A stretch of 32,000 nucleotides of DNA from Gemmata obscuriglobus (GTDB lineage: Bacteria; Planctomycetota; Planctomycetia; Gemmatales; Gemmataceae). Where the stretch lies: the NCBI RefSeq assembly GCF_008065095.1, contig NZ_CP042911.1:3600001-3632000 (forward strand). Direction: 5' to 3'. How positions within the stretch are numbered: the first letter of the stretch is position 1; every line of letters begins with the position of its first letter. The translations under genes were made by a program, and so were the position numbers. The notes beneath the pieces are model-generated. The model worked only from the letters and a program-made list of their open reading frames with translations, had not been told where the DNA came from and did not search any database. Below, in pieces: positions 21,773 to 32,000 of the stretch.

Positions 21773-22002
21773 GGGGAACCTCCTTGTTCGGATGCAGACC
21801 TAGCGGTATTCATCCTGAGCAAAGTTATCATTGCCCCGGGTCCGGGGTCGGTCAAATTCGTGGGCCGGCGGTTTCGTCTCTTCGTGCGGCACGGGGGCGG
21901 CGCGTTTGGCAGAATTGCGGGAACAATGCGAACCGGCACAACCTTCAAACTCGGGCAGCCCGCGTTGCGGTCGCGGATCGAAATTGTTCAAGGCGGGAAA
22001 CG

Positions 22003-22031
22003 TTGACGCTGGGCGGGACGGGCCATATGAT
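22003..22031 (+). promoter_or_regulatory. sigma70-like promoter of tRNA-Arg
   Basis: TTGACG (22003-22008), 17-nt spacer, TATGAT (22026-22031). The mature tRNA 5' end is 13 nt downstream. Confidence 0.6.
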
Positions 22032-22043
22032 TTGCTTCGGCGA

Positions 22044-22117
<74 letters not shown>

Positions 22118-22124
22118 CTGACAT

Positions 22125-22156
22125 AACCCCGTGCGACGCACGGGGTTGTGTCTTTT
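22125..22156 (+). terminator. rho-independent terminator after tRNA-Arg
   Basis: AACCCCGTG, CGACG loop, CACGGGGTT, followed by GTGTCTTTT. Confidence 0.8.
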
Positions 22157-22216
22157 ACAGACCGTGCCCGATAACGGCCGGTGGTAACGCGGTGGCAACG
22201 ACGGACCGAAGCGGTT

Positions 22217-23302
22217 TCAGGGCTTAACTGGCGGGTTTAGAAAGCCTTCCATCACGGCCGCCGCCCGCTGCTGGTCGCCCGGCATGACGTGGGCGTAGTG
22301 CTTCAGGGTGGTCATCACGTCCGCGTGCCCGAGTCGCTCGCTCACCACCTTCAGCGGCACGTGTGCCCGGAGCAGGAGCGTCGCCATCGTGTGTCGCATG
22401 GTGTAGGGTGTAACCCATTCGAGGTCGGCTTTTTTCCGGATCGGGCCGAAGGGGCTCCGCAGGAAGTTCGACTGCCACCACGCCCCGCCCCGGCTGTCCG
22501 GCATCACCAGTTTCCCGGTCCACAGGGGCGGCCGTGCGGCCAGCATGGCGGCGACGGTGGACGGGGCCAGCTCGATCGTCCGCACCTTCCCCGTCTTCGT
22601 GTCCTTCCGCTCGTTGGTCACCCCGTCCTGTGCCCCGCTCACTTTGATCTCGCTCTTGTCGGGGTGGAAGTCGTCCCAGCAGAGGGCGAACATTTCCGCC
22701 GGCCGCAATCCGGCGTCGAGCCAAAGGCGGAAGGCGTAGCCGAGTTGGTGGAGCGATTCGGCGGCGGTCAGGAACGCCACGCACTGGTCCGGTAGCATGG
22801 CCCGCTTCTCGTCACGCTTCGGGTTGGGGAGCTTCAACTCTGCCATCGGGTTCACCGGGATGCGGCTGAACGCCACAGCGGACCCGAGGGCGTTCCGCAG
22901 TACGGCCCCCGCTTTCTGGCGTTCACTGTCGCTCTGCCCGTCGGTCGCCATCTGGGCGAGCATCAGCACGATCTTCTCGCGGGTGAGGTCGCGGAGCCGG
23001 GTCGAGCCGATCCGCGGTTTGAGGTGCGTGTCCACCCGCCACTTGTCGTGGCTGTAGGTCTTGTTCGAGATGTCCGGCTTCCGCATCTCCATCCAGGCGT
23101 CCAGCCACTCTCCGATAGTCCCGGCCGCCGCGGGCTGGTCCTGCCCCTTCAGCCAGTCCTGAGCGTCCTTTCGCGTGTCGAACGTTTTTGACGACCGCAA
23201 CAGTTCGTTGCCGACCTGCTTTGCCTTGCGGGCGAGGTACTTGCCGTTCGGCTTCTTCGTGATCCCGCCCTCTCCATTCCCCCGCTTCTGGCCTTTGGGC
23301 AT
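22217..23302 (-). CDS. int: tyrosine-type site-specific integrase
   Basis: ORF 22217..23389 trimmed to MPKGQKRG at 23302, with AGGAG 6 nt upstream. The catalytic region is LWLDAGLRPAE...TPYTMRHTMATLLL...LGHADVMTTLKHYAHV (R, HxxR, H and Y positions). The upstream in-frame extension runs through palindrome copy 1 and has poorer third-position GC. Confidence 0.9.
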   Translation of the reverse strand: MPKGQKRGNGEGGITKKPNGKYLARKAKQVGNELLRSSKTFDTRKDAQDWLKGQDQPAAAGTIGEWLDAWMEMRKPDISNKTYSHDKWRVDTHLKPRIGSTRLRDLTREKIVLMLAQMATDGQSDSERQKAGAVLRNALGSAVAFSRIPVNPMAELKLPNPKRDEKRAMLPDQCVAFLTAAESLHQLGYAFRLWLDAGLRPAEMFALCWDDFHPDKSEIKVSGAQDGVTNERKDTKTGKVRTIELAPSTVAAMLAARPPLWTGKLVMPDSRGGAWWQSNFLRSPFGPIRKKADLEWVTPYTMRHTMATLLLRAHVPLKVVSERLGHADVMTTLKHYAHVMPGDQQRAAAVMEGFLNPPVKP

Positions 23303-23314
23303 GTCGGGCTCCTG

Positions 23315-23338
23315 CGTGGTGGTCGCGCGACCACCACG
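23315..23338. repeat. element palindrome copy 1 (24-bp perfect palindrome CGTGGTGGTCGCGCGACCACCACG)
   Basis: Read directly from the sequence. On the minus strand it is followed by GCAGGAGCCCGAC and then the integrase ATG. Confidence 0.95.
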
Positions 23339-23402
23339 GTCAAAAAGAAACGCCGGTGCGATCTTGCACGGCGTCTTTAGAATGCGCACAATTGTCCACT
23401 AT

Positions 23403-23621
23403 TCAAGCTTGCTGATCCGGTTCGCGGACGCGAAACTCTTCGGTGCTCACACCCAACGCTGTTGCGAGTTGAACGATGGCAGACCACTTCGGTTCGTTGC
23501 GCCCCTGCTCCCAGTTCTCGATGGACCGGAGGGTGAGGTTCGCCAGTGAAGCAAGTTCCGTTTGCGACAAATTCCTCGCTTCTCTTAATTCCCGAAGTCG
23601 TTTTGCGAATTGATCTTGCAC
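23403..23621 (-). CDS. XRE-family HTH transcriptional regulator (candidate immunity repressor)
   Basis: ORF 23403..23690 trimmed to the GTG at 23621, with GGGGGAG 5 nt upstream. The HTH_3 pattern is FAKRLRELREARNLSQTELASLANLTLRSIENWEQGRNEPKWSAIVQLATALGVS. It is divergent from the rightward gene set. Confidence 0.85.
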   Translation of the reverse strand: MQDQFAKRLRELREARNLSQTELASLANLTLRSIENWEQGRNEPKWSAIVQLATALGVSTEEFRVREPDQQA

Positions 23622-23625
23622 GAAA

Positions 23626-23745
23626 ACTCCCCCAAAATGGGGATAATGGGCTTGTACTCCCCACATGTGGGGAGTATTCTTCCTACACACAGTGAACGTG
23701 CCATGTGTAGTGCTTCGTGCGTCACACTACCCGATTTTGGGGAGT
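23626..23745. promoter_or_regulatory. three related 20-bp dyad operators (7-6-7 architecture, consensus ACTCCCC-N6-GGGGAGT)
   Basis: O-a is 23626-23645 (ACTCCCC CAAAAT GGGGATA). O-b is 23656-23675 (ACTCCCC ACATGT GGGGAGT), the core of the perfect 22-bp palindrome TACTCCCCACATGTGGGGAGTA at 23655-23676. O-c is 23726-23745 (ACTACCC GATTTT GGGGAGT). Centre-to-centre distances are 30 and 70 bp. Confidence 0.65.
23652..23680 (+). promoter_or_regulatory. candidate rightward early promoter overlapped by operator O-b
   Basis: TTGTAC (23652-23657), 17-nt spacer, TATTCT (23675-23680). The spacer is almost entirely the O-b palindrome. Confidence 0.5.
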
Positions 23746-23840
23746 TACAAAACTCGACGCGTGTTCACTGAGTGCCGAAAGGGTCTCGCGTTTTTCAACG
23801 TGCCGGTCAGTGAAGCCAGATCGCCCAAATGAGTCGGAAC

Positions 23841-23856
23841 GTGGTCGCGCGACCAC
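23841..23856. repeat. element palindrome copy 2 (GTGGTCGCGCGACCAC)
   Basis: Perfect 16-mer. It lies 16 nt upstream of GTG 23873, with an AGGAG SD in between. Confidence 0.95.
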
Positions 23857-23872
23857 TTGGTAGGAGCCAACT

Positions 23873-24112
23873 GTGTCGAAGTTCACGCCCACCGCAGCCG
23901 ACGTGACGGAACTGCGGGACCGGTTGCAAGCGTCCCGCCCTGAACTGTCGCTGTCCCGATCGTGCGTGCGGGGCATTCTCGAAGGCTACATGCTCGAACG
24001 TGCCCTGTTCGGCCGTGCTTTGACGAACCCCGTTACCGGAGCCTCGCAATGTCCGCGACAAATGCCCTCGCTTACGAAGCCGGACTCACCAGCCCCGGCC
24101 CCGACGACGTGA
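23873..24112 (+). CDS. hypothetical small protein, first rightward gene (Cro-like position)
   Basis: GTG start at 23873, with AGGAG 6 nt upstream. Third-position GC is high through about 24040. The stop at 24110-24112 is followed after 1 nt by palindrome copy 3, the same layout as at other gene ends in the element. No family recognised. Confidence 0.5.
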   Translation: MSKFTPTAADVTELRDRLQASRPELSLSRSCVRGILEGYMLERALFGRALTNPVTGASQCPRQMPSLTKPDSPAPAPTT

Positions 24113-24113
24113 C

Positions 24114-24133
24114 CGGTGGTCGCGCGACCACCG
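24114..24133. repeat. element palindrome copy 3 (20-bp perfect palindrome CGGTGGTCGCGCGACCACCG)
   Basis: Starts 1 nt after the TGA at 24110-24112. Confidence 0.95.
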
Positions 24134-24141
24134 TCGCGTTC

Positions 24142-24516
24142 GTGTCGCCCCAGATGCGGAAGGCGGTGTTTGACTGCCGGTACGGTCGCCGGCTCACCGT
24201 GATCGTGCCCCGGTCCGCTTCGGCGGCGTTCGTCCACCTCGACGACCCGGACCGCACGAGCGACTTTCTCGGGTGGCGGGACAACCCGAGCCTGACGCTC
24301 GAAGCCGAAGACCCGGCACTGGTCCGGTTCTGTCGGCTCTGCGTCGAGGGGAGCATCAGCCCCAACGACCTCAGCTACTACTTCGAGCACCGCTGCCCGG
24401 TGGTGTCGGAGAGCGGGTGGCGGCGGACGCTCCTGCACGAGTGGTGCTCGAACGCCCGGCCGGTGGACCCGGTTTCCGCCCTCGCGGTCGAGTTGAACGC
24501 CACGGGAACGATGTGA
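24142..24516 (+). CDS. hypothetical protein
   Basis: This is the 3' part of ORF 23962..24516, and the start is uncertain. GTG 24142 and ATG 24154 lie after the palindrome but lack a clear SD. ATG 24049 has GGAG 7 nt upstream, but it would overlap the upstream ORF by 64 nt and place palindrome copy 3 in frame as GGRATT. No family recognised. Confidence 0.45.
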   Translation: MSPQMRKAVFDCRYGRRLTVIVPRSASAAFVHLDDPDRTSDFLGWRDNPSLTLEAEDPALVRFCRLCVEGSISPNDLSYYFEHRCPVVSESGWRRTLLHEWCSNARPVDPVSALAVELNATGTM

Positions 24517-24608
24517 GGCCATCAGGGCGGTTAGCCGGTGTAACTCCGGACCGGTCAGCCGCGGTTTCACCGCTCTGGCACCGTAGCGGGATGGGAACGG
24601 TGCGACTT

Positions 24609-24675
24609 GGTTCCTGGCTTGGTGCCGTGCGGCGGTGAGCGACGCCGCACCCCCGTTCGATTCGGGGCGGAACCT
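24609..24675 (+). other. tRNA-like cloverleaf (non-canonical) in a 263-bp non-coding gap
   Basis: Acceptor GGTTCCT (24609-24615) pairs with CGGAACC (24668-24674) for 6 of 7 bp. There is a canonical T arm CCCCG-TTCGATT-CGGGG (24651-24667) with the G53-C61 equivalent, and a mini D arm GGC-TTGGT-GCC. The central arm has an 8-bp stem and an 8-nt loop (GTGCGGCG-GTGAGCGA-CGCCGCAC), so there is no standard anticodon loop. Confidence 0.3.
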
Positions 24676-24779
24676 CTGGGCGGGCCGGGTAGACCGGCGG
24701 TGATAGGGCTCCACCGCCGGCGACGCGTGACGCATGGGCCACGCGCCCCGGCCCGCCTCCTCGCAAGGAGTTCGACGAC

Positions 24780-24989
24780 ATGCCTACCGTCCCCCAGATC
24801 CCGTTGCCCGCGGGCGACCGCTGGATGCAGACCCGCGAGCTGGCCCAGTTGTTCGGGCTCAACGCCGAGACGATCAACCGCTGGCGGCGGACGGGCAGAC
24901 TCAAGGGCTACCCGGTCGGGAAGATGTTCTGGTACAAGCGGTCCGACGTGAACGTCCTGCTCGAAGCGATGAAGCTGCCCACCATCTGA
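24780..24989 (+). CDS. excisionase/AlpA-like helix-turn-helix DNA-binding protein
   Basis: 69 aa, with AAGGAG 9 nt upstream. The pattern TRELAQLFGLNAETINRWRRTGRLKGYPVGKMFWYKRSDVNVLLE matches the excisionase-family (MerR-like HTH_17) domain. Confidence 0.75.
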   Translation: MPTVPQIPLPAGDRWMQTRELAQLFGLNAETINRWRRTGRLKGYPVGKMFWYKRSDVNVLLEAMKLPTI

Positions 24990-24990
24990 A

Positions 24991-25006
24991 GTGGTCGCGC
25001 GACCAC
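24991..25006. repeat. element palindrome copy 4 (GTGGTCGCGCGACCAC)
   Basis: Starts 1 nt after the TGA of the excisionase-like gene (24987-24989). Confidence 0.95.
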
Positions 25007-25039
25007 CCGCGGGCCTTCCATAAGTAAGTGGCGGCACCA

Positions 25040-26227
25040 ATGGCACGAACCGAAGAGAGCCAGCGGCGGGAGGCCGACCGCAAGGAAGGCTGGAACGCCC
25101 GCCGGTGGTACGAGGGGATCATGGCGAAGCAGAAGACGCACATGGGCGGGGCGGTTACCGAAACCGAACTGCTGATCGCGAACATCGACCGGTCCGTGAC
25201 GCAGGAGGTGCGGTCGGTCCTCGATCAGGCGACCGTGGACCTGTACGCCGAGACCGAGGACGAGTGGTCCGCCACGGCCCCCGTGGACGTGTGGTGGGAC
25301 GGGGCCAAGGCGTGCTACGCCAGCGACGGCGGGCACCGGATCGCGGCGAAGGAGAAGAACGGCCGCAAGAAGATCCTGTGCCGGGTCCACCGGTGCGACG
25401 ACGCCGAATCGGCCCTGACGCTGGCCCGGCTCCACGCCTTCGGCCCGGCGAACCACGCCCACGGCCGGGCCAGGACGCCGGAAGACAAGCGGAAGACGGT
25501 CCGGTCGTGCATCGCACTCCCCGAGTACGCGGGCGAGAGCGACCGCCGCATCGCCGAGATCTGCAAGGTCGGCAAGTGGCTGGTCGGGCAGGTGCGGGCG
25601 GAAATCGCGGGGGCTCCGAAGCCGGCCCCGCGGACGGTCAAGGCCGATTCGCCGCCGAAGCCCGCCCCCACGCCGGCGAGTGGTCGCGCGACCACTGCGG
25701 AAGAACGCGTCATCGAGTCCCTCACGAAACCCGGTGTCGTCGAGAAGCTGGTCGAGCGGCTCGAATCGGAAGACATCGTTGAGTCGCCGGAGGTGGTCGC
25801 GCGGCCACCGGCCAAGGAACACAAGGCCCTGACGGATGCCCGCGGGCGGGTGGTTCCCGAGCCGATGGTGTCGCTGTTCCGGCTCGGGCGGGCGTTTGCG
25901 GCGGACTTGCGGGGCGTGCTGCACGAGGCGGCCGACGGGGTCAAATCGGCCGCAGAAGAGTCGTGGGGCATCGGGCTGGCCCAGATGGTGCCGACGCTCG
26001 AGGCGGACTTGAAGAAGGTCGCACAGGACGCAGCGGCTTCTCTTCCGTGGTGTTGCTGCCCGCACGTCGATCAGGCGACCGGCGAACACCTCGTCGAGGG
26101 CAAGTGCCGGGTGTGCATCAACAACCGGGGCTGGCTGACCCGCCACAACTGGCACCAGCTCGGCGACCCCATCAAACAACTGATCGACGAGCACGCGGAG
26201 CCGGACGCCGAGCGCGAAGACGCCTGA
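25040..26227 (+). CDS. ParB-like N-terminal (ParB/Srx) domain protein with HTH, Pro/Ala-rich linker and Cys-rich C-terminus
   Basis: ATG at 25040, with an in-frame GTG alternative at 25028. The ParB-like core is ASDGGHRIAAKEKNGRKKILCRVH. The HTH-like segment is ESDRRIAEICKVGKWLVGQVRAEI. The C-terminus is WCCCPHVD...GKCRVCINNRGW. It contains palindrome copy 5 (read SGRATT) and decayed copy 6 (read VVARPP) in frame. Confidence 0.65.
   Translation: MARTEESQRREADRKEGWNARRWYEGIMAKQKTHMGGAVTETELLIANIDRSVTQEVRSVLDQATVDLYAETEDEWSATAPVDVWWDGAKACYASDGGHRIAAKEKNGRKKILCRVHRCDDAESALTLARLHAFGPANHAHGRARTPEDKRKTVRSCIALPEYAGESDRRIAEICKVGKWLVGQVRAEIAGAPKPAPRTVKADSPPKPAPTPASGRATTAEERVIESLTKPGVVEKLVERLESEDIVESPEVVARPPAKEHKALTDARGRVVPEPMVSLFRLGRAFAADLRGVLHEAADGVKSAAEESWGIGLAQMVPTLEADLKKVAQDAAASLPWCCCPHVDQATGEHLVEGKCRVCINNRGWLTRHNWHQLGDPIKQLIDEHAEPDAEREDA
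25679..25696. repeat. element palindrome copy 5 (18-bp AGTGGTCGCGCGACCACT), intragenic
   Basis: In frame in the ParB-like CDS, read as S-G-R-A-T-T. Confidence 0.95.
25792..25809. repeat. element palindrome copy 6, decayed (GGTGGTCGCGCGGCCACC, one A to G change at 25804), intragenic
   Basis: In frame in the ParB-like CDS, read as V-V-A-R-P-P. Confidence 0.8.
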
Positions 26228-26273
26228 CCTCGGACGGACCAGTGGCTAATCGGGTCGAGCAGGAGCAGAGCAG

Positions 26274-28109
26274 ATGATTACCCCGCGCCCCTACCAGAAG
26301 CAGAGTGTGGACCGGGTGTTCGGGCGGTTCGACGCGGGCGAGCCGTCCACGCTCGTGATCCTGCCGACCGGCTGCGGCAAGACGGTCGTGTTCGGGCTGG
26401 TGTCGCAGCAGTGGGCGCGAGAGTGCCGGCCGGGACGGGTGCTGGTGCTCGCCCACCGGGACGAGTTGATCCAGCAGGCGGCCGAAGAGCTACAGGGCAT
26501 CACCGGGTCCGCCCCGGCGATCGAACAGGCGGACCGGTACGCGGTCCCAGCGGGCGGGAGCATGGGGGACGCCCCGTCGGTCGTGGTCGGGAGCGTCCAG
26601 ACGCTGTGCCGGGACCGCCGGCTCGCTCGCTGGCCGAAGGACGAGTTCGGGCTGATCGTCACGGACGAGTGCCACCACGCGACCAGCCCGAGCTACCGGA
26701 AGATCTACGACCACTTCGGGGCGGCGAAGCGGCTGGGCGTGACGGCCACGCCGAAGCGGGCCGACGACCTCGCACTCGGGCACGTGTTCGGGTCCGTGGC
26801 GTTCGACATGGGCATCTGCGACGCGGTGGACGAGGGTTGGCTGTGCCCCGTCGAGCAGCGGTACGTGACGGTCAACGGGATGGACCTGTCGGCGGTGAAA
26901 ACGGCCGGCGACGACTTCTCGGACGGGGCGATCGGGGCCGTGCTGTCCGGCGACTCGGTGCTCGATCAGATGGTCGCGGCGACCATCGAATTGTGCGGCG
27001 ACGAGCCGACGCTGATCTTCACCGCCCCGCGGCCCCCGGGCGAGCAGGTGAGTCAGGGCGATCTGTTCGCGGACGCCCTGAACAAGATCAAGCCGGAGCG
27101 GGCCGTGTTCCTATCCGGCGAGACGGACAAGGACGTGCGGCGGCGGGAGATCGAGCTGTTCGAGCGGGGCGAGCGGCAGTTCCTGGTCGGGTGCAGCTTG
27201 TTCACGGAGGGGTTCAATGTTCCCAAGATCAGCCGGGTGGTCATGGCTCGTCCGACGAAATCGAACGCTTACTACACTCAGGCGATCGGCCGCGGCACAC
27301 GGACTCTACGCGGCACTCTGCATCCTGACCTCGCCACGCCGGAAGCCCGACGGGCGGCGATCGCCGCGTCCGCCAAGCCGTCCGTCCTCGTGATCGACTT
27401 CGTGGGGAACAGCGGCCGGCACAAGCTCATCTCGGCGGTGGACATCTTCGCCGGCAACCACCCGCAATCGGTGGTGGACCGGGCCAAGCGGAACGCCGCG
27501 AACGACGCCGCCAAGGGGCTGCACCGGGACGTGAAGCAGGTGCTGGACGAGGCGGCCCGCGAGGAGCGGAAGGAGGCGGCCGAGCGGCGGCGGAAGGAGA
27601 AGAAGGCCCGGGTGAAGGTGAACCGGGTGGACATGCACCAGCAGACCGTGGACCCGTTCGCGGCCAGCGACGCCCCGGGCCAGCGGGACCGGCTCGCCAG
27701 CGGCAGCGGTCGCGCGACCGCCACCCAGATCGAGTGGATCCGGACCCACGGCGGGTACTGCTCCGACACCGTGACGGCGAACGATGCCGGGGCCATCATC
27801 GCGGACATGAAGGACCGCTGGTCCCGCAAGCTGTGCAGCCCGAAGCAGGAGCGGACACTGAAGCGGGCGGGCGTGGCGGACGGCCCGGTCCCGAAGGACC
27901 ACGCCAAGGCCCTGCTCGACTGGCTCGCGGCCCGCAACTGGCGATCGACCGGGCGGCCGACGCGGAAGCAGTTGGGGATCCTGCGGAGCGAGTCGGGCGA
28001 CGGGTTTCAGCTCACGATCGACGGGCAGCGGGTCGGGCAGGTGATGCGGAGCGTGGACGCGGTGCGGGCGGCGTACCGCGGGCTGGCGGCGGAACCGGTG
28101 GTGGCGTAA
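26274..28109 (+). CDS. SF2 DEAD/DEAH-box helicase (type III restriction Res-like) with a C-terminal extension
   Basis: AGGAG upstream. Motif I is LPTGCGKT, motif II is VTDECHH, motif III is GVTATP, and motif VI is YTQAIGRGTR. A charged low-complexity segment (EERKEAAERRRKEKKARVK) is followed by palindrome copy 7 in frame (SGRATAT) before a 130-aa tail. Confidence 0.85.
   Translation: MITPRPYQKQSVDRVFGRFDAGEPSTLVILPTGCGKTVVFGLVSQQWARECRPGRVLVLAHRDELIQQAAEELQGITGSAPAIEQADRYAVPAGGSMGDAPSVVVGSVQTLCRDRRLARWPKDEFGLIVTDECHHATSPSYRKIYDHFGAAKRLGVTATPKRADDLALGHVFGSVAFDMGICDAVDEGWLCPVEQRYVTVNGMDLSAVKTAGDDFSDGAIGAVLSGDSVLDQMVAATIELCGDEPTLIFTAPRPPGEQVSQGDLFADALNKIKPERAVFLSGETDKDVRRREIELFERGERQFLVGCSLFTEGFNVPKISRVVMARPTKSNAYYTQAIGRGTRTLRGTLHPDLATPEARRAAIAASAKPSVLVIDFVGNSGRHKLISAVDIFAGNHPQSVVDRAKRNAANDAAKGLHRDVKQVLDEAAREERKEAAERRRKEKKARVKVNRVDMHQQTVDPFAASDAPGQRDRLASGSGRATATQIEWIRTHGGYCSDTVTANDAGAIIADMKDRWSRKLCSPKQERTLKRAGVADGPVPKDHAKALLDWLAARNWRSTGRPTRKQLGILRSESGDGFQLTIDGQRVGQVMRSVDAVRAAYRGLAAEPVVA
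26971..26985. repeat. possible degenerate copy: 15-bp odd-centred palindrome TGGTCGC-G-GCGACCA, intragenic
   Basis: It uses the same 7-nt half-sites as the family but has one extra central base. It lies in the helicase CDS, read as M-V-A-A-T-I. Confidence 0.5.
27706..27721. repeat. element palindrome copy 7, symmetric variant (GCGGTCGCGCGACCGC), intragenic
   Basis: The core GGTCGCGCGACC is intact. The second and fifteenth positions changed together (T to C and A to G), so the 16-mer is still a perfect palindrome. It is read S-G-R-A-T-A in the helicase CDS. Confidence 0.9.
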
Positions 28110-28129
28110 AAGTGGTCGCGCGACCACTT
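28110..28129. repeat. element palindrome copy 8 (20-bp AAGTGGTCGCGCGACCACTT)
   Basis: The 16-mer starts 2 nt after the helicase TAA (28107-28109) and ends 16 nt before ATG 28144. Confidence 0.95.
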
Positions 28130-28143
28130 AGGGGAGAGCACCA

Positions 28144-28359
28144 ATGAAGACGGCTGAACAGATGATGGCCGAGTTGAACGCCACCAGAGCCGCACTCGGT
28201 TTGGTGCCCGTCACCCGGCCGAACAGTGGCTATTGCCATTCCGGACGCGATGGCGACTGCAACGACGGTGAGTGTCCTCAACTGAGAGACGGCGAACCGG
28301 AGAAGACCGGTCGCCACTGCCCGCTCGATATGCACGACGACGAACGCGGTTACCAGTAG
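28144..28359 (+). CDS. small Cys-rich hypothetical protein
   Basis: 71 aa with a GGGGAGAG SD. It is bracketed by palindrome copies 8 and 9. The Cys/His pattern is YCHSGRDGDCNDGECP...GRHCP. Confidence 0.55.
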   Translation: MKTAEQMMAELNATRAALGLVPVTRPNSGYCHSGRDGDCNDGECPQLRDGEPEKTGRHCPLDMHDDERGYQ

Positions 28360-28360
28360 T

Positions 28361-28378
28361 AGTGGTCGCGCGACCACT
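28361..28378. repeat. element palindrome copy 9 (18-bp AGTGGTCGCGCGACCACT)
   Basis: The 16-mer starts 2 nt after the TAG (28357-28359) and ends 16 nt before ATG 28394. Confidence 0.95.
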
Positions 28379-28393
28379 TCGGGAGGGCTCCGG

Positions 28394-28765
28394 ATGCCGT
28401 GCTTCTGGTGCGACCGATTCGGGGTGCGGCTCACCCGAGACCACGTGAAGCCGCGGTGTGCGGGCGGCGGGGACGAGGACAACATCGTCATGGCGTGCGA
28501 CGGGTGTCAGGCGTCGCGGAACCAGATCCAGCAGTACTACACGAACGCCAAGGTGTTGCGGTTCAAAGTCGCGATCCGGTGGCCGGACGCGGGCCGCCGC
28601 CACAAGGAGCAGATCCGCCGGATGCGGGCGACGCTCCTCAAGCAACTGTCCGGCGTCCTCACTCTGGTGGCGTTCTGGACCCAGCGGGAAACGGACCGCT
28701 GGGGGAGCAGCCCGACCGCCGCACTCGACCTGACCGTTCCGGACCTGCCGAAGCGGAGGGCGTGA
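28394..28765 (+). CDS. HNH endonuclease
   Basis: GGGAGGG SD 6 nt upstream. The HNH core is CFWCDRFGVRLTRDHVKPRCAGGGDEDNIVMACDGCQASRN. Confidence 0.8.
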   Translation: MPCFWCDRFGVRLTRDHVKPRCAGGGDEDNIVMACDGCQASRNQIQQYYTNAKVLRFKVAIRWPDAGRRHKEQIRRMRATLLKQLSGVLTLVAFWTQRETDRWGSSPTAALDLTVPDLPKRRA

Positions 28766-28768
28766 CCG

Positions 28769-29317
28769 ATGGATCGTGAGGCGTTGCTGCGGGTGATTGC
28801 GATGCACCCGCACGAGAACACGCCACGGCTCGAGTACGCCGACTGGCTCATGCAATACGGCTCTTGCGACCGCGACGCCGCAACTTCCGAGTTCATTCGG
28901 ATGTCCTGCTCCGTCGGGTGCCGGCAGAAGCGGATGCCATACGAGGTGTACGGGTGGCTGATCAAGAACTGGCACCGTCTCGTCCCGAAGTCTCTGGCGG
29001 TCGGGGTGCCGGTCGAGAGCGGGCCAACGCCACAACAGGGGTGGCGGATCAACTGGCACAACGGGCGGAAGAAAGAGGTTCTCATCCGTCTGGCTCGCCT
29101 CCCGCCGAAACGTGGTGGTTACCGACCGTTCAAGGTAGTGTTCGACTTCGCCTTCGGGTTCTTGGACCGGTGCGAGACGTGGAGCCCGGTTTCTTTCGGG
29201 CAACTGAAGCAGCCGCTCCTCGCCGACCAGCCGCTCTGCAAGGTCATGTGTCATGGCACGACGAGACATCCCCAACGGGTTCGGTCACTACTCGGCGGTG
29301 CTGGAGCGGATCTGTGA
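28769..29317 (+). CDS. TIGR02996-domain protein (Gemmata-type repeat-companion N-terminal domain)
   Basis: GGAGGG SD 8 nt upstream. The N-terminus (REALLRVIAMHPHENTPRLEYADWLMQYG...SEFIRMSC) matches the TIGR02996 pattern (L..I...P.DD.PRLVYADWLEE.GD..RAEFIR.Q). The 3' end overlaps the next ORF by 65 nt. Confidence 0.65.
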   Translation: MDREALLRVIAMHPHENTPRLEYADWLMQYGSCDRDAATSEFIRMSCSVGCRQKRMPYEVYGWLIKNWHRLVPKSLAVGVPVESGPTPQQGWRINWHNGRKKEVLIRLARLPPKRGGYRPFKVVFDFAFGFLDRCETWSPVSFGQLKQPLLADQPLCKVMCHGTTRHPQRVRSLLGGAGADL

Positions 29318-30260
29318 GTACCGCCCGGCGGGCCGGTGGGTCCAGTTCCAGTGCCTCCTGCCGCACCGCCACAAGAACGGCGACGCCCACTGGTCGGGGC
29401 TCGCGTGGATCGGCGACAAGGGCGAACTGGTCGCCCGGTGTCAGGGGTGCGGGGCCGGGTTCAAGGAGCTTGTGGACGCCGTCGGGCTCCCCCAGACCGA
29501 GTGGTTCCCGGACAAGGGTCGCAGGTACGAGTTCGCCAACAAAGGTGGTCGCGCGACCACCGCAAAACAGGAGCCGGAGCCCGTGTCAGACCCCGTCGCA
29601 ATCTACCAGTACCGGGACGAAGCGGGCGAACTGCTGTTCGAGAAGCTGCGGTACGAGCCGAAGCGGTTCCAGTGCCGCCGGCCGACGCCAGCGGACGTGC
29701 GGCGGCGGGCGGACATCTCGGACGGGGTCGTGTCGTGGGTGTGGGGCGTGAGCGAGGGGATCTACTCCCGGCCGTCGCGGGACGGGGCGTGGGATCTGGT
29801 GCCGGCCCGCCACGACCACCAGATCGCGGTGAAGGTCGATGAGTGCCGGCGGGTGCTGTACCGGCTCCCGGAGCTGCTCGCCGCGAACAAGGAAGCCCCG
29901 GTGTTCCTGGTCGAGGGCGAGAAGGACGTGGAAACGCTCAAGTCGCTGGGGCTCACCGCGGTCTGCACGTGGGCCGGGTCGGGCAGCGTGGACCCGGCGT
30001 GGCTGCTGCCGCTGGTGGACCGGCGGGTGGTGGTGGTGCCGGACAACGACGAGGTCGGGCGGTCGCACGCGATGCGGTGCGTTGGGTGGCTGGTGTGCGG
30101 GGGCGTCCGCTCGGTGCGGGTGCTGTGGCCGGGCGAGTGCGGCTACGACCCGGCCCCGGGCGGCGACATCTCCGACTGGCTGGCCGCTCAGGACCCGGAC
30201 GGCGGCGGGGCGAAGGCGTCGCTGATCGAACTGTGCAAGCGGGCTCACGAGTACAAGTGA
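29253..30260 (+). CDS. DNA primase-like protein (CHC2-type zinc finger + Toprim domain)
   Basis: The Zn finger is FQCLLPHRHKNGDAHW...ARCQGCGAGF. Toprim motifs are VFLVEGEKDVETL and VVVVPDNDEVGRSHA. Palindrome copy 10 lies in frame (KGGRATTA) between the finger and the core. The start is uncertain because of the overlap with the upstream ORF; an alternative GTG is at 29298. Confidence 0.75.
   Translation: MARRDIPNGFGHYSAVLERICEYRPAGRWVQFQCLLPHRHKNGDAHWSGLAWIGDKGELVARCQGCGAGFKELVDAVGLPQTEWFPDKGRRYEFANKGGRATTAKQEPEPVSDPVAIYQYRDEAGELLFEKLRYEPKRFQCRRPTPADVRRRADISDGVVSWVWGVSEGIYSRPSRDGAWDLVPARHDHQIAVKVDECRRVLYRLPELLAANKEAPVFLVEGEKDVETLKSLGLTAVCTWAGSGSVDPAWLLPLVDRRVVVVPDNDEVGRSHAMRCVGWLVCGGVRSVRVLWPGECGYDPAPGGDISDWLAAQDPDGGGAKASLIELCKRAHEYK
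29544..29561. repeat. element palindrome copy 10 (18-bp GGTGGTCGCGCGACCACC), intragenic
   Basis: In frame in the primase-like CDS, read as G-G-R-A-T-T. Confidence 0.95.
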
Positions 30261-30262
30261 AC

Positions 30263-30276
30263 TGGTCGCGCGACCA
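30263..30276. repeat. element palindrome copy 11 (14-bp TGGTCGCGCGACCA)
   Basis: The 16-nt window 30262-30277 starts 1 nt after the primase TGA (30258-30260). The outer pair is mismatched (C/C). Confidence 0.9.
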
Positions 30277-30302
30277 CTTTGGATACGGGGAGAACGCCAC
30301 CG

Positions 30303-32000
30303 ATGACGAGCGACTACGGCGAGTTTTTGCGGTCGAAGGTGCGGGCGGTCGAGCCGGCGGGGTTCGAGAACGGGCGGCTCCCGAAGGGCCTGTTCCCGCA
30401 CCAGCGGGCGATCGTGAAGTGGGCGTGCCGGATGGGCCGCGGGGCGGTCTTCGCCGACACCGGGCTCGGCAAAACGCTGATGCTGCTCGCGTGGGCGGAT
30501 CAGGTGTACCGCCGCACCGATCGGCCGGTGCTGGTGCTGACGCCGCTCGCAGTCGCTGAGCAGACGGCAGAAGAGGCGAAGAGATTTGGGATCGAAGGCG
30601 TTTTCCGAACCGACTCGCCCGCCGGCTACGTCGATTACTCCCGGGTCGTGGTCACGAACTACCAGAAGCTGCACCGGTTCGACCCGTCCGCCTTCGGTGG
30701 CGTTGTTCTGGATGAGAGTTCGATCCTCAAGAGCCACGACGGGGCGTACCGCAAGGCCCTGACGGAGGCGTTCGCGGCCACGCCGTACAAGCTGTGCTGC
30801 ACCGCGACCCCGGCCCCGAACGACCACACCGAGATCGGCACCCACGCCGAGTTCTTGGGCGTGATGAGCCGGACGGAGATGCTCGCCACCTACTTCGTTC
30901 ACGACTCGGGCGACACGTCGGAGTGGCGGCTGAAGGGGCACGCGGTCCGCGACTTCTGGCGGTGGGTCGCGTCGTGGGCGGTGCTGTGCCGGCGGCCGTC
31001 CGACCTGGGGTTCAGTGACGAGGGGTACGAACTGCCCCCGCTCCGCGTCCACGAGGTCGAGATCGAGACCGCCGCCCAGGCGGGCGTACTGTTCGCGACC
31101 GCGGAGACCACGCTCGCCGGCCAGCGGGCGGCCCGGAAGGAGTCGATGGATGGTCGCGCGACCACGTCCGCCCGGATCGCGAACGAGCCCGGCCCGTGCG
31201 TTGTGTGGGCGGAACTGAACGCCGAAGCCGACGCGGTTCAGGAACTGATTCCGGACGCGGTGCAGGTCGCGGGGGCGGACAAGGACGAGGACAAGCTGTC
31301 GCGGCTGAAGGGGTTCGCGGCTGGAACACACCGGGTGCTGGTCACCAAGACCACCGTGGCCGGGTTCGGGCTCAACTGGCAGCACTGCCGCCGCATGGTG
31401 TTCGTGGGGCTGTCGAACAGCTACGAGCAGTTCTATCAGGCGGTTCGGCGGTGCTGGCGGTTCGGCCAGACGGGGCCGGTGGACGTGTACCTGATCGGCA
31501 CGGCCCGCGACGCCGGGGTGTGGGCGAACATCGCCCGCAAGCAGCGGGACCACGAGGCGATGGTCGAGGGGATGCTACAGCACACCCGGGACGTGAACCG
31601 CGAACAACTGGGGGCGACCGTGAAGCAGACCGACGAGTACCGGACGGGCCGGACCGGGGGCAAGACCGACGCGTGGATGATCCACCTCGGGGACTGCGTG
31701 GAAACGCTCCGCGGGTTCGACCCGGAGTGCGTCGATTACAGCCTGTTCTCGCCCCCGTTCGCGTCGCTCTACACGTACAGCAACTCGCCGCGGGACATGG
31801 GCAACTGCGGCACCTACGCCGAGTTCGCGGCCCACTTCGGGTTCCTCGTGGCGGAACTGTACCGCGTGCTGAAGCCGGGGCGGCTGGTGTCCTTCCACTG
31901 CATGAACCTGCCGACCACGAAAGAGCACCACGGGTACATCGGGATCCAGGACTTCCGCGGCGACCTGATCCGGCAGTTCCAAGCCGCGGGGTTCATCTAC
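30303..32000 (+). CDS. SNF2-family helicase fused to an N4/N6 DNA methyltransferase (partial, continues past the window end)
   Basis: Absent from the supplied ORF track because no stop is reached; translated by hand from the ATG at 30303 (GGGGAGA SD). Helicase motifs are FADTGLGKTLMLLAWA, VVLDESSILK, CCTATPAPND, LVTKTTVAGFGLNWQ and FYQAVRRCWRFGQ. From about 31680 the beta-class amino-methyltransferase start is HLGDCVETL...VDYSLFSPPFASLY. Palindrome copy 12 lies in frame (DGRATT) between the two helicase lobes. Confidence 0.8.
   Translation, partial: MTSDYGEFLRSKVRAVEPAGFENGRLPKGLFPHQRAIVKWACRMGRGAVFADTGLGKTLMLLAWADQVYRRTDRPVLVLTPLAVAEQTAEEAKRFGIEGVFRTDSPAGYVDYSRVVVTNYQKLHRFDPSAFGGVVLDESSILKSHDGAYRKALTEAFAATPYKLCCTATPAPNDHTEIGTHAEFLGVMSRTEMLATYFVHDSGDTSEWRLKGHAVRDFWRWVASWAVLCRRPSDLGFSDEGYELPPLRVHEVEIETAAQAGVLFATAETTLAGQRAARKESMDGRATTSARIANEPGPCVVWAELNAEADAVQELIPDAVQVAGADKDEDKLSRLKGFAAGTHRVLVTKTTVAGFGLNWQHCRRMVFVGLSNSYEQFYQAVRRCWRFGQTGPVDVYLIGTARDAGVWANIARKQRDHEAMVEGMLQHTRDVNREQLGATVKQTDEYRTGRTGGKTDAWMIHLGDCVETLRGFDPECVDYSLFSPPFASLYTYSNSPRDMGNCGTYAEFAAHFGFLVAELYRVLKPGRLVSFHCMNLPTTKEHHGYIGIQDFRGDLIRQFQAAGFIY
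31151..31164. repeat. element palindrome copy 12 (14-bp TGGTCGCGCGACCA), intragenic
   Basis: In frame in the SNF2-methyltransferase CDS, read as D-G-R-A-T-T. Confidence 0.9.

What the first reader, a model, noticed from the sequence alone, without database searches (positions are those of the whole stretch)
25679..31164. Palindrome copies embedded in frame inside four large genes, at apparent interdomain linkers, mostly translated G-R-A-T-T
The motif has no stop codon in any of its three frames (VVARP, WSRDH, GRAT), and being a palindrome this holds on both strands. Intact intragenic copies occur at four sites. In the ParB-like protein one lies after the HTH in a Pro/Ala linker, at about residue 213. 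In the SF2 helicase one follows the charged spacer after the helicase core, at about residue 478. In the primase one lies between the zinc finger and the Toprim core, at about residue 98. In the SNF2-methyltransferase one lies between the two helicase lobes, at about residue 283. All four intact copies use the same frame (GRAT), giving small polar linker-compatible residues. The 18-bp form equals exactly six codons. Because the other copies mark gene boundaries, one inference is that these multidomain genes arose by fusion of neighbouring modules across a boundary element. Another is that the motif is a recombination joint for module shuffling. A third is that a DNA or RNA site is tolerated only where the protein can absorb a six-residue linker. 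This recalls in-frame Rickettsia palindromic elements, but on a far smaller scale.
Basis: partly seen in the sequence, partly recalled or inferred. Interest (0 to 1): 0.8.

Follow-up and report, generated by a model that had tools for sequence, protein, structure and literature searches.

The report
Prophage-wide palindrome array, also inside genes
A Gemmata obscuriglobus prophage carries one exact 12-16 bp palindrome about every 0.8 kb, at most gene boundaries and also inside long genes, and relatives keep such sites at the same places but with different palindromes, so it is a selected DNA site, most likely a protein-binding site, not a protein feature.

Summary
GGTCGCGCGACC occurs 11 times exactly and once with one mismatch, all in window 23321-31163 (0.94 expected). 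Four exact copies lie in frame (G-R-A-T) inside the ParB/Srx-like gene, the SF2 helicase, the primase and the SNF2-methyltransferase. The gene models hold.

The window is Gemmata obscuriglobus chromosome with a prophage at tRNA-Arg. The motif is prophage-wide: 19 exact and 4 near copies in 18 kb, reaching the terminase and portal genes.

Related uncultured phages carry the same palindrome or one of three others: GGCCGCGCGGCC, GGCAGCGCTGCC, GACAACGTTGTC. These often sit at orthologous intragenic positions and in different reading frames.

Of 26 GRAT peptides, 24 are encoded by the exact 12-mer (0.6% expected per peptide). Spacing is more even than chance. So the DNA is selected, not the peptide.

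Only two of the four sites are disordered, hypervariable linkers (primase, ParB-like). The helicase and SNF2 copies are in-place substitutions in alignable segments.

Gene fusion across a boundary copy is supported only for the SNF2|methyltransferase junction in relatives. Domain shuffling is not supported.

Best reading: an operator-like array of binding sites for a phage-encoded dimeric DNA-binding protein, resembling stoperators or KorB/Noc sites. The binder is unidentified.

The parts
22044..22118 (+). tRNA-Arg(ACG), the integration site; left boundary of the prophage
   Evidence: ARAGORN. Host genes lie to the left (GlgB, ABC transporter, DUF58) and the integrase lies to the right.
22217..23302 (-). 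Tyrosine integrase
   Evidence: Pfam Phage_integrase; gene call on L178 128-1213.
23319..23334 (.). Palindrome copy; its far edge is 30 nt before the integrase ATG on the minus strand
23403..23690 (-). cI-like HTH_3/HTH_31 regulator (true start probably internal); a candidate binder
   Evidence: Pfam and PHROGs. Orthologues are present in L001, L004, L094 and L175.
23841..23856 (.). Palindrome copy, 30 nt before GTG 23873, the first early gene
24116..24131 (.). Palindrome copy between stop codon 24112 and the probable start GTG 24142
24780..24989 (+). Excisionase-like HTH_17 protein
   Evidence: PHROGs; precomputed Pfam.
24991..25006 (.). Palindrome copy just after the excisionase stop, 47 nt before ATG 25040
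25040..26227 (+). ParB/Srx-like N-domain + HTH + Cys-rich C-domain protein. It is found only in palindrome-bearing relatives and is a candidate binder.
   Evidence: A profile of 12 orthologues hits sulfiredoxin and ParB weakly (E 3e-4 to 0.1). PF02195 is precomputed on P0241 and P0244. It is present in 8 of 10 motif loci by tblastn (and in L175 by alignment) and in 0 of 81 non-motif loci.
25680..25695 (.). Intragenic copy 1 (GRAT) in the hypervariable Pro/Ala linker of the ParB/Srx-like protein
   Evidence: Every orthologue covering that region carries a copy (exact or with one mismatch) in this linker, across motif types 1, 2 and 4; the L176 copy of the gene is cut off by the contig end.
25793..25808 (.). 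One-mismatch copy GGTCGCGCGGCC, a hybrid of type 1 and type 2 half-sites, read as VVARP
26274..28109 (+). SF2 (ResIII/DEAD) helicase with a C-terminal domain
   Evidence: Pfam; homologues; AlphaFold mean pLDDT 86.
27706..27721 (.). Intragenic copy 2 (GRAT, residues 479-482), at the end of the disordered 447-476 linker and aligned to a conserved G-P-A-T
28112..28127 (.). Boundary copy: helicase stop at 28109, next ATG at 28144 (30 nt)
28362..28377 (.). Boundary copy, 30 nt before ATG 28394 (HNH gene)
29253..30260 (+). Zinc-finger + Toprim DNA primase (NCBI start at 29298)
   Evidence: PHROGs DNA primase; P0121; AlphaFold mean pLDDT 91.
29545..29560 (.). Intragenic copy 3 (GRATT, residues 99-103), inside the disordered 92-107 linker
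30262..30277 (.). Boundary copy: primase stop at 30260, next ATG at 30303 (39 nt)
30303..32000 (+). SNF2 helicase-N6/N4 methyltransferase fusion; runs off the window, 752 aa in full
   Evidence: Pfam; L178 8214-10472.
31150..31165 (.). Intragenic copy 4 (GRAT, residues 284-287), between the two helicase lobes. It is an in-place substitution, not an insertion.
   Evidence: it aligns without gaps to GRVS/ARVA/ERCE in L181, L093, L176 and L092.

Best explanation
The four in-frame copies are ordinary members of a prophage-wide array of one cis-acting DNA site.

The site is a perfect palindrome with core GGTCGCGCGACC, usually (G/C)T-core-A(C/G). It occurs about every 0.8-1 kb along a temperate phage integrated at tRNA-Arg of Gemmata obscuriglobus.

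Shown:
- The site is selected at the nucleotide level.
- It sits immediately upstream of the ribosome-binding site at many gene boundaries.
- It is also kept inside long genes, at places where one of its three open frames gives a tolerable peptide.
- Spacing is more even than chance.
- Related phages keep sites at orthologous places but have switched the whole array to another palindrome.

Inferred: the site is the binding site of a phage-encoded two-fold-symmetric DNA-binding protein whose specificity co-evolves with the array.

Such a protein would silence, roadblock or organise the prophage genome. Comparable cases are the stoperators of Cluster A mycobacteriophages and the scattered palindromes bound by the ParB-family proteins KorB and Noc.

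Candidate binders are the ParB/Srx-HTH-Zn protein encoded at 25040-26227 and the cI-like repressor at 23403-23690. Neither is demonstrated.

Under this reading, long genes carry internal copies because the array needs a certain density.
For: Enrichment and restriction to the prophage:
- 12 copies against 0.94 expected, and none in 22 kb of host DNA.
- 19 exact plus 4 one-mismatch copies in 18 kb of the same prophage, including TerL and the portal gene.

Nucleotide-level selection:
- 24 of 26 GRAT and 8 of 10 VARP peptides are encoded by the exact motif. Codon usage predicts 0.6% and 1% (binomial P about 1e-51).
- All three frames are used (16/4/6).

Four array types in relatives:
- The types are GGTCGCGCGACC, GGCCGCGCGGCC, GGCAGCGCTGCC and GACAACGTTGTC.
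- Different types sit at orthologous positions: the ParB-like linker, helicase columns around residues 48-60, the primase linker, and TerL (LVARP/LAALP/GRAA).
- The same holds for the methyltransferase LxxLPD segment.
- Hybrid half-sites exist (window 25795, L093 4355), and type 3 locus L176 retains 2 type 1 copies.

Palindromy:
- All four types are perfect palindromes through the centre, as expected for duplex DNA bound by a symmetric dimer.
- An RNA loop has no need to be self-complementary.
- Flank complementarity fades beyond +/-4.

Position:
- 39 of 116 copies lie 12-48 nt before a called start, with a mode of 30 nt. Random placement gives 5.6 +/- 2.3.

Even spacing:
- The coefficient of variation of gaps is 0.59 against 0.91 +/- 0.06 for random placement.
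- With boundary copies fixed and interior copies randomised it is 0.60 against 0.83 +/- 0.05, and the largest gap is smaller (P = 0.007).

Candidate binder:
- The ParB/Srx-HTH protein co-occurs perfectly with the array in the sampled loci.

Precedents:
- Stoperators: 20-30 sites across the genome, with motif and repressor diverging together (PMC6550527).
- KorB: loaded at palindromic OB sites for long-range silencing (PMC11790492).
Against: - No binding protein is identified.
- The recognition helix of the ParB-like HTH does not co-vary simply with palindrome type. P0243 and P0244 are type 2 but have type 1-like helices.
- The ParB-like protein has DGGHR rather than the GERRxR CTP box of ParB clamps.
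- The primase and SNF2-methyltransferase are almost as clade-specific as the ParB-like protein, so co-occurrence does not single it out.
- Stoperators are asymmetric and oriented with transcription; these sites are palindromic.
- The tight position just 5' of the ribosome-binding site would also suit an mRNA-level role.
- Two interior copies have decayed by synonymous changes while keeping GRAT (L092 helicase, L181 primase), so not every interior copy is indispensable.
Confidence: 0.5

Rival explanations
1. The element acts in RNA. Each copy forms a short GC-rich stem-loop in the polycistronic mRNA (5-8 bp stem, GCGC loop), sitting between the upstream stop codon and the next ribosome-binding site. 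A phage-encoded RNA-binding protein or nuclease would recognise it for processing, stabilisation or translational control of each cistron. Interior copies would be tolerated or used to uncouple domains.
For: - The position is stereotyped: a stop codon, 2-4 nt, the palindrome, about 5 nt, the ribosome-binding site, then the start codon. The modal distance is 30 nt.
- The hairpin is predicted in every context folded.
- A palindrome works for genes on either strand (L066, and the integrase in the window).
- Symmetric changes between types (TC/GA, CC/GG, CA/TG) preserve base pairing.
Against: - The predicted loops (GCGC, ACGT) are themselves palindromic in all types. RNA does not need this, whereas a dimer on duplex DNA explains it.
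- Folding energies are unremarkable against shuffles (z from -2.0 to +0.3).
- There is no T-tract, so these are not intrinsic terminators.
- By my count, one-mismatch variants in the putative stem keep a G:U pair in about 3 of 13 cases, roughly as chance would give (variants listed).
- Copies occur between convergent genes, where no start codon follows (L178 14041).
- 66 of 116 exact copies lie inside called genes and most have no downstream ribosome-binding site.
- Uniformity within each genome would still require a sequence-specific factor.
Confidence: 0.22
2. The copies are targets of the phage's own DNA-modification machinery: the SNF2-N6/N4 methyltransferase, C5 methyltransferases in some relatives, or a ParB/Srx protein plus a PAPS-reductase-like pair resembling IbrAB/DndC. 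The array would be an epigenetic mark for self-recognition, anti-restriction or timing of expression.
For: - Perfect even-length palindromes are typical targets of dimeric or symmetric modification enzymes.
- Every sampled element that reaches that part of the genome encodes an N6_N4 methyltransferase.
- L178 encodes a PAPS-reductase-like protein (phrog_424).
- L091 encodes a Mom-like protein.
- Specificity switches between relatives resemble swaps of a target-recognition domain.
Against: - Twelve or more specified bases is far longer than usual methyltransferase sites.
- Placement at gene boundaries and even spacing are not expected for a modification target.
- No link between methyltransferase type and palindrome type could be tested.
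- PAPS-reductase homologues were not found in the other loci, though sampling is limited.
Confidence: 0.1
3. The copies are short shared homology blocks, or a small mobile or self-propagating element. They would serve as recombination joints for exchange of genes and domains between phages, as with the PeSL cassettes of T4-type phages or the boundary sequences of lambdoid phages. Multidomain genes would arise by fusion across them.
For: - The SNF2 and methyltransferase genes are split in L092, with the motif 32 nt before the methyltransferase start.
- In L093 the same junction is fused and carries a copy in the same alignment columns; L176 and L181 carry theirs about 15 residues further on, in the methyltransferase LxxLPD segment.
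- The L092 SNF2 is only 42% identical to the window's, while neighbouring genes are 52-68% identical. This suggests replacement of a module flanked by copies.
- Nearly every gene is flanked by copies.
Against: - Identities on the two sides of the interior copies are concordant, with no recombinant pair in the ParB-like, helicase or primase families.
- The helicase and SNF2 copies are substitutions in alignable sequence, not insertions.
- No transposase or RAYT-like gene appears in the precomputed Pfam lists of the loci.
- A recombination joint would not need even spacing or in-situ switching of palindrome type across a whole genome.
- Selection for evolvability is weak compared with a direct function.
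Confidence: 0.1
4. The in-frame GRAT(T) peptides are a protein-level feature, such as a conserved linker or a modification or cleavage motif, and the nucleotide palindrome is incidental.
For: - GRAT is retained with synonymously decayed DNA at two orthologous sites.
- The helicase site overlaps a conserved G-P-A-T.
- The GRAT frame is preferred, 16 of 26 interior type 1 copies.
Against: - 24 of 26 GRAT peptides use one exact coding out of hundreds possible.
- Orthologous sites are read as WSRDH, VVARP or RSRDR in relatives.
- Other palindrome types give unrelated peptides at the same sites: GRAA, AARP, LAALP, DNVV.
- About 43% of copies are not translated at all.
Confidence: 0.03

Closest known systems
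Stoperators of Cluster A mycobacteriophages (L5, Bxb1)
   Same: - Dozens of copies of one short site spread over a whole temperate phage genome, mostly at gene boundaries and a few in genes.
- The consensus differs between related phages.
- The consensus diverges together with the genome and the repressor (PMC6550527; PMC9283540).
   Different: - Stoperators are asymmetric 13-14 bp sites oriented with transcription and bound by a monomeric repressor.
- Here the site is a perfect 12-16 bp palindrome and the host is a planctomycete.
- More than half of the copies lie inside genes, at conserved positions.
- The binder is unknown.
Scattered palindromic sites of ParB-family proteins: KorB/OB on RK2, Noc/NBS, parS
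   Same: - These are 13-16 bp perfect palindromes, in multiple dispersed copies, some of them inside genes.
- They are bound by an HTH of a ParB-fold protein encoded by the same replicon.
- KorB uses them for long-range silencing (PMC11790492).
- Site numbers, and the intragenic parS and NBS sites, are from my own knowledge.
   Different: - The local protein has only a weak ParB/Srx signal.
- It has DGGHR instead of the GERRxR CTP box, and a Cys-rich C-domain.
- The site density, about 1 per kb, is much higher.
- The tie to the ribosome-binding site and start codon is not a ParB feature.
Conserved inverted repeats (CIRs) of Streptomyces phage phiC31 and the dispersed C1 operators of phage P1 (from my own knowledge, not checked here)
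   Same: A repressor operator present in many highly conserved copies in intergenic regions across a temperate phage genome.
   Different: No systematic intragenic copies, even spacing, or array-wide switches of type at orthologous positions have been reported for them, as far as I know.
Start-associated sequences of Cluster K mycobacteriophages and the 17-bp palindromes of Cluster O (from my own knowledge)
   Same: A short conserved repeat placed immediately upstream of many start codons or flanking genes in a phage genome.
   Different: - Start-associated sequences are asymmetric and only precede start codons.
- Here 66 of 116 exact copies lie inside called genes, and copies also lie between convergent genes.
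Rickettsia palindromic elements
   Same: A palindromic nucleotide element found in frame inside protein-coding genes, where the protein tolerates it.
   Different: - Rickettsia palindromic elements are roughly 100-150 bp mobile insertions spread over a bacterial chromosome (from my own knowledge).
- Here the element is 12-16 bp and confined to the prophage.
- It is often created by substitution rather than insertion.
- It is positioned non-randomly.

Membership tests
Cluster A-type stoperators | Many copies of one short site spread over the whole phage genome, enriched at gene boundaries | tested here: met
   23 copies in 18 kb of the prophage. 39 of 116 lie just before a start codon, against 5.6 expected.
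Cluster A-type stoperators | [quoted passage not shown] | tested here: not met
   All four site types are perfect palindromes.
Cluster A-type stoperators | Site consensus differs between related phages and tracks the repressor | tested here: inconclusive
   Four array types were found. Co-variation with the cI-like or ParB-like HTH could not be established with 2, 1 and 1 genomes of types 2-4.
Cluster A-type stoperators | Bound by the immunity repressor and blocks elongation | not testable with these tools
   Needs EMSA or ChIP and reporter assays.
ParB/KorB/Noc-type binding sites | 13-16 bp perfect palindrome in dispersed copies | tested here: met
ParB/KorB/Noc-type binding sites | A ParB-fold protein with an HTH encoded on the same element | tested here: inconclusive
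   The orthologue profile hits sulfiredoxin at E = 3e-4 and ParB/Noc at E = 0.04-0.4. PF02195 is precomputed on P0241 and P0244. Pfam and PHROGs give no hit on the window protein itself.
ParB/KorB/Noc-type binding sites | GERRxR CTP-binding box in the N-domain | tested here: not met
   The alignment shows an invariant D-G-x-H-R (DGGHR) at that place. This is read by eye against the ParB motif, which I recall from my own knowledge.
Rickettsia-palindromic-element-like in-frame insertions | Discrete insertion relative to homologues that lack the element | tested here: inconclusive
   The primase linker is about 6 residues longer with the motif than in motif-less homologues. The helicase and SNF2 copies align without gaps.
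Rickettsia-palindromic-element-like in-frame insertions | Element of about 100-150 bp dispersed through the host chromosome | tested here: not met
   The element is 12-16 bp. There are no copies in 22 kb of host flank in the window or in 8 kb of flank in L002.
Intrinsic terminators | GC-rich hairpin followed by a T-tract | tested here: not met
   Only one copy, on the minus strand, meets the pattern. The total of 6 matches compares with 5.4 in shuffles.
REP/RAYT-type repeats | A cognate HUH (Y1) transposase encoded nearby | tested here: not met
   No such Pfam family appears in the gene tables of 12 related loci. Sampling covers only parts of the genomes.

The most novel reading that the evidence does not exclude
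Planctomycete temperate phages may carry a previously undescribed genome-wide system. In it, a lineage-specific 16-bp perfect palindrome must be present about every kilobase, so strictly that it is written into essential genes such as helicase, primase, terminase and portal. The whole array, together with its unknown reader (perhaps the ParB/Srx-HTH-Zn protein), would switch specificity in concert between related phages. That would be a new mode of phage genome silencing or organisation. It would also be a natural example of a DNA code overlaid on a protein code.
Probability: 0.3. Interest if true: 0.8.

Novelty: new variant of a known kind. Interest (0 to 1): 0.62.

Why it matters
Virtually nothing is known about gene regulation in phages of Planctomycetes.

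This array gives a concrete, testable handle: a 16-mer, two candidate binders, and a culturable lysogen, G. obscuriglobus.

It also shows how a nucleotide-level requirement shapes protein sequence:
- It dictates rare codons and recurring tetrapeptides (GRAT, VARP, WSRD).
- It sits at domain borders and in tolerant structured segments.
- It persists while the array changes specificity.

If the binder is found, the four natural site types offer a ready-made series for studying co-evolution of a DNA-binding protein with dozens of dispersed sites.

For annotation, it warns that recurring GRAT(T)/VVARP peptides in these phage proteins are by-products of a DNA site, not protein motifs.

Tried and rejected
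- Megablast of 22000-32000 against the phage collection found no match. tblastn of the helicase found only relatives of 35% identity or less in cultured phages.
- The first genome-contig scan, with the helicase alone, found nothing. The second, with alignment A1, gave 80 loci at 40% identity or less. None has an iterated palindrome, and their top repeats are GC-only background or coding tandem repeats.
- The viral-contig scan for type 1 gave one true multi-copy contig (L066) among 85 mostly chance hits.
- The apparent 'split primase' P0142 is not split. The zinc-finger part is in the same uninterrupted frame, and the gene caller simply chose an internal ATG.
- The 'truncated ParB-like' P0241 is a frameshifted annotation of the same gene.
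- Co-variation of the ParB-like HTH recognition helix with palindrome type looked promising ('CHR' in both type 2 loci), but P0243 and P0244 contradict it.
- An internal translation start after the interior copies is not general. Only the primase copy is followed by a GGAG and an in-frame GTG, and that codon is a conserved Val.
- Long hairpins or cruciforms are unlikely. Flank complementarity exceeds expectation only modestly, and only to +/-4.
- A literature search for the motif string found nothing. No paper on G. obscuriglobus prophages addressed it.
- The third protein search, on the ParB-like protein, returned only 6 homologues because low-complexity words saturated the candidate list.

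Full report
**What is in the window**

Positions 1-22000 are ordinary chromosome, with GlgB, an ABC transporter, DUF58 and a caspase-domain protein.

A tRNA-Arg(ACG) lies at 22044-22118. It is followed by a tyrosine integrase on the minus strand and a cI-like HTH gene.

A plus-strand operon follows:
- two small ORFs;
- an excisionase-like HTH_17 protein;
- a 395-aa protein with a ParB/Srx-like N-domain, an HTH and a Cys-rich C-domain;
- an SF2 helicase;
- a small Cys-rich ORF;
- an HNH protein;
- a 182-aa ORF;
- a zinc-finger/Toprim primase;
- an SNF2-N6/N4-methyltransferase fusion that runs off the window.

The primase is 100% identical to GobsT_30820 of Gemmata obscuriglobus. The window is therefore G. 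obscuriglobus chromosome carrying a prophage integrated at tRNA-Arg.

**Checking the observation**

GGTCGCGCGACC (full form GTGGTCGCGCGACCAC) occurs 11 times exactly and once with one mismatch, all between 23321 and 31163. Shuffles give 0.94 +/- 0.99.

- 25682: ParB/Srx-like protein, residue 215 of 395;
- 27708: helicase, residue 479 of 611;
- 29547: primase, residue 99 of 335;
- 31152: SNF2-methyltransferase, residue 284 of 752.

Copy 25795 is a one-mismatch copy read as VVARP.

The other copies sit at gene boundaries in a stereotyped arrangement: stop codon, 2-4 nt, palindrome, about 5 nt, ribosome-binding site, start codon. The core begins exactly 30 nt before the start codon at 23843, 28114 and 28364. 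The same holds on the minus strand for the integrase.

The gene models are sound. The helicase has more than 100 full-length homologues. Independent gene calls on another assembly of the same prophage (L178) give the same ORFs.

**The array is prophage-wide**

L178 extends the prophage to the equivalent of window position 40260. It carries 19 exact and 4 one-mismatch copies in 18 kb. These run on through a DNA polymerase III beta gene, a PAPS-reductase-like gene and a sigma factor gene. They then reach the large terminase and a Mu-like portal gene.

**Relatives**

Helicase homologues of 45-77% identity come from uncultured phage or prophage contigs.
- L001, L002/L003, L004/L005, L091, L092 and L181 carry the identical 12-mer, with 4-17 copies each.
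- So does L066, an IMG/VR contig of structural and other genes.
- L093 and L175 instead carry GGCCGCGCGGCC, with 10 and 14 exact copies.
- L176 carries GGCAGCGCTGCC, with 11 copies plus two type 1 copies.
- L094 carries GACAACGTTGTC, with 10 exact copies plus 6 with one mismatch.

Eighty more distant helicase-bearing loci (40% identity or less, mostly Planctomycetota prophages) and L177 have no iterated palindrome. The trait therefore belongs to one clade.

No paper in the library contains the motif.

**DNA, not peptide, is selected**

In type 1 loci, 24 of 26 GRAT tetrapeptides are encoded by exactly GGTCGCGCGACC, although GGT is a rare Gly codon (12%). Codon usage predicts 0.6% (P about 1e-51).

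Likewise, 8 of 10 VARP peptides use the motif, including the rare CGA codon.

Orthologous sites are read in different frames:
- The primase linker is GRATT in the window, WSRDH in L001, RSRDR in L002 and GRAA in L093.
- The helicase linker is GRAT or VVARP.

Orthologous sites also carry different palindromes:
- TerL reads LVARP (type 1), LAALP (type 3) or GRAA (type 2) between conserved flanks.
- Helicase columns around residues 48-60 read WSRDR (type 1) or LAARP (type 2).
- The methyltransferase LxxLPD segment reads LVARPD (type 1) or LAALPD (type 3).
- The ParB-like linker carries a copy (exact or with one mismatch) in every locus that covers it.

Types 1, 2 and 3 differ by one step per half-site (TC, CC, CA), and hybrid half-sites exist (window 25795, L093 4355). 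The array therefore seems to change in place and in concert.

**Where interior copies sit**

Of 116 exact copies in ten loci, 39 lie just before a start codon (random placement gives 5.6 +/- 2.3). Eleven are otherwise intergenic and 66 lie inside called genes.

For 51 deep-interior copies, the flanking residues are disorder-prone relative to the rest of the same protein. The median percentile is 0.80 (Wilcoxon P = 2e-5).

AlphaFold results:
- The primase GRATT (residues 99-103) falls within a pLDDT<50 segment, 92-107, between the zinc finger and the catalytic core.
- The helicase GRAT (479-482) falls at the end of a pLDDT<50 segment, 447-476, and forms the first residues of the C-terminal domain. 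There it aligns to a conserved G-P-A-T.

The SNF2 copy aligns without gaps to GRVS/ARVA/ERCE in relatives that lack the motif. It is therefore a substitution in an alignable segment, not an inserted linker.

The primase linker is about six residues longer in motif-bearing homologues than in motif-less ones.

So the 'six-residue linker insertion' holds for the primase and probably for the ParB-like protein. It does not hold for the helicase or the SNF2 gene.

**Spacing**

Gaps between successive copies are more even than chance.
- The mean coefficient of variation is 0.59, against 0.91 +/- 0.06 for random placement.
- With boundary copies fixed and only interior copies randomised, the observed value is 0.60 against 0.83 +/- 0.05.
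- The largest gap is also smaller, 2249 against 2645 +/- 189 nt (P = 0.007).

Interior copies therefore fill what would otherwise be long site-free stretches. This argues for selection on site density.

Fusion. L092 has separate SNF2 and methyltransferase genes, with the motif 32 nt before the methyltransferase ATG. L093 has the fused gene with a copy in the same alignment columns. The fused genes of L176 and L181 carry one about 15 residues further on, in the methyltransferase LxxLPD segment. That junction fits fusion or fission across a boundary copy. None of the four window sites does.

Shuffling. Identities of the N- and C-terminal parts flanking the interior copies are concordant, with no recombinant pair.

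Two apparent split genes, P0142 and P0241, are artefacts of gene calling or a frameshift.

**Mechanism**

I favour a binding site in duplex DNA for a symmetric dimer, for four reasons.
- All four types are perfect palindromes through their centres (GCGC or ACGT), which an RNA loop does not need.
- Copies within a genome are uniform while genomes differ, which calls for a sequence-specific, element-encoded reader.
- Flank complementarity fades beyond +/-4.
- Copies occur between convergent genes and, mostly, inside genes.

The RNA hairpin is predicted, but it is not unusually stable for this GC content, and there is no T-tract.

Closest precedents:
- Stoperators: 20-30 sites across the genome, with motif and repressor diverging together (PMC6550527).
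- The dispersed palindromes of ParB-family proteins such as KorB (PMC11790492).

Candidate binder:
- The ParB/Srx-HTH-Zn protein is found in every palindrome-bearing locus that covers that region and in none of 81 other loci.
- The primase and SNF2-methyltransferase are nearly as specific to the clade.
- Its recognition helix does not track palindrome type cleanly.
- It lacks the ParB CTP box.

The cI-like repressor family is also conserved, and a copy lies at or near the 3' end of its gene in several loci. The binder and its action (roadblock, silencing, compaction or modification) remain inferred.

**Verdict**

It is a selected nucleotide element overlaid on coding sequence. The 'tolerated site' reading is right in spirit, the 'linker insertion' reading is only half right, and the fusion and shuffling readings are mostly unsupported.

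It is a new variant of a known kind: genome-wide operator-like arrays in temperate phages. Its unusual features are:
- perfect palindromy;
- even spacing;
- conserved intragenic positions;
- concerted switches of type.

These deserve experimental follow-up.

Noticed in passing
L094 1590-1671: Three one-mismatch copies of the type 4 palindrome sit in a 35-bp tandem repeat, inside a doubtful 56-aa ORF next to an integrase-sized gene. It looks like a cooperative operator or iteron cluster.
   Followed up: no
window 25795-25806; L092 4413; L093 4355; L176 3100: Hybrid copies have one half-site of type 1 and one of type 2. Two intact type 1 copies lie inside the type 3 genome L176. These are possible intermediates of array switching.
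   Followed up: partly
L178 12096-13082 (window-equivalent 34185-35171, beyond the window): A PAPS-reductase-like protein (phrog_424, E = 2.5e-39) lies in the same prophage as the ParB/Srx-like protein. The pairing recalls IbrA/IbrB and DndC-type DNA-modification modules; that comparison is from my own knowledge.
   Followed up: no
P0014, P0018 (helicase homologues, about 960 aa): Two helicase homologues carry Hint and LAGLIDADG domains (PF05203/PF05204, PF14528). These are intein insertions in the same helicase family.
   Followed up: no
window 23691-23872: The divergent region between the cI-like gene and the first early gene holds other inverted repeats (CTACACA...TGTGTAG; GTGAACG...CGTGTTCAC) besides the single palindrome copy. 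These may be the real operators of the cI-like repressor.
   Followed up: no
L004 3069 and 3114; L175 4087; L094 2911: Palindrome copies lie inside the 3' part of the cI-like repressor gene itself. In L175 the copy sits between the HTH and the S24 peptidase domain. This hints at autoregulation.
   Followed up: no
L178 16326-18171 and L066 5550-9866: These are very long structural ORFs. One is a 1365-aa product with a Mu-type portal domain. The other is a 1438-aa ORF carrying four palindrome copies.
   Followed up: partly
L099 7736-7964; L102 4335-4767; L103 564-690: Distant helicase-bearing loci contain coding tandem repeats of 21-24 nt periods. They are unrelated to the palindrome.
   Followed up: no
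window 28144-28359: A 71-aa Cys/His-rich ORF between two boundary copies has no family match. It may be a small zinc-binding protein.
   Followed up: no
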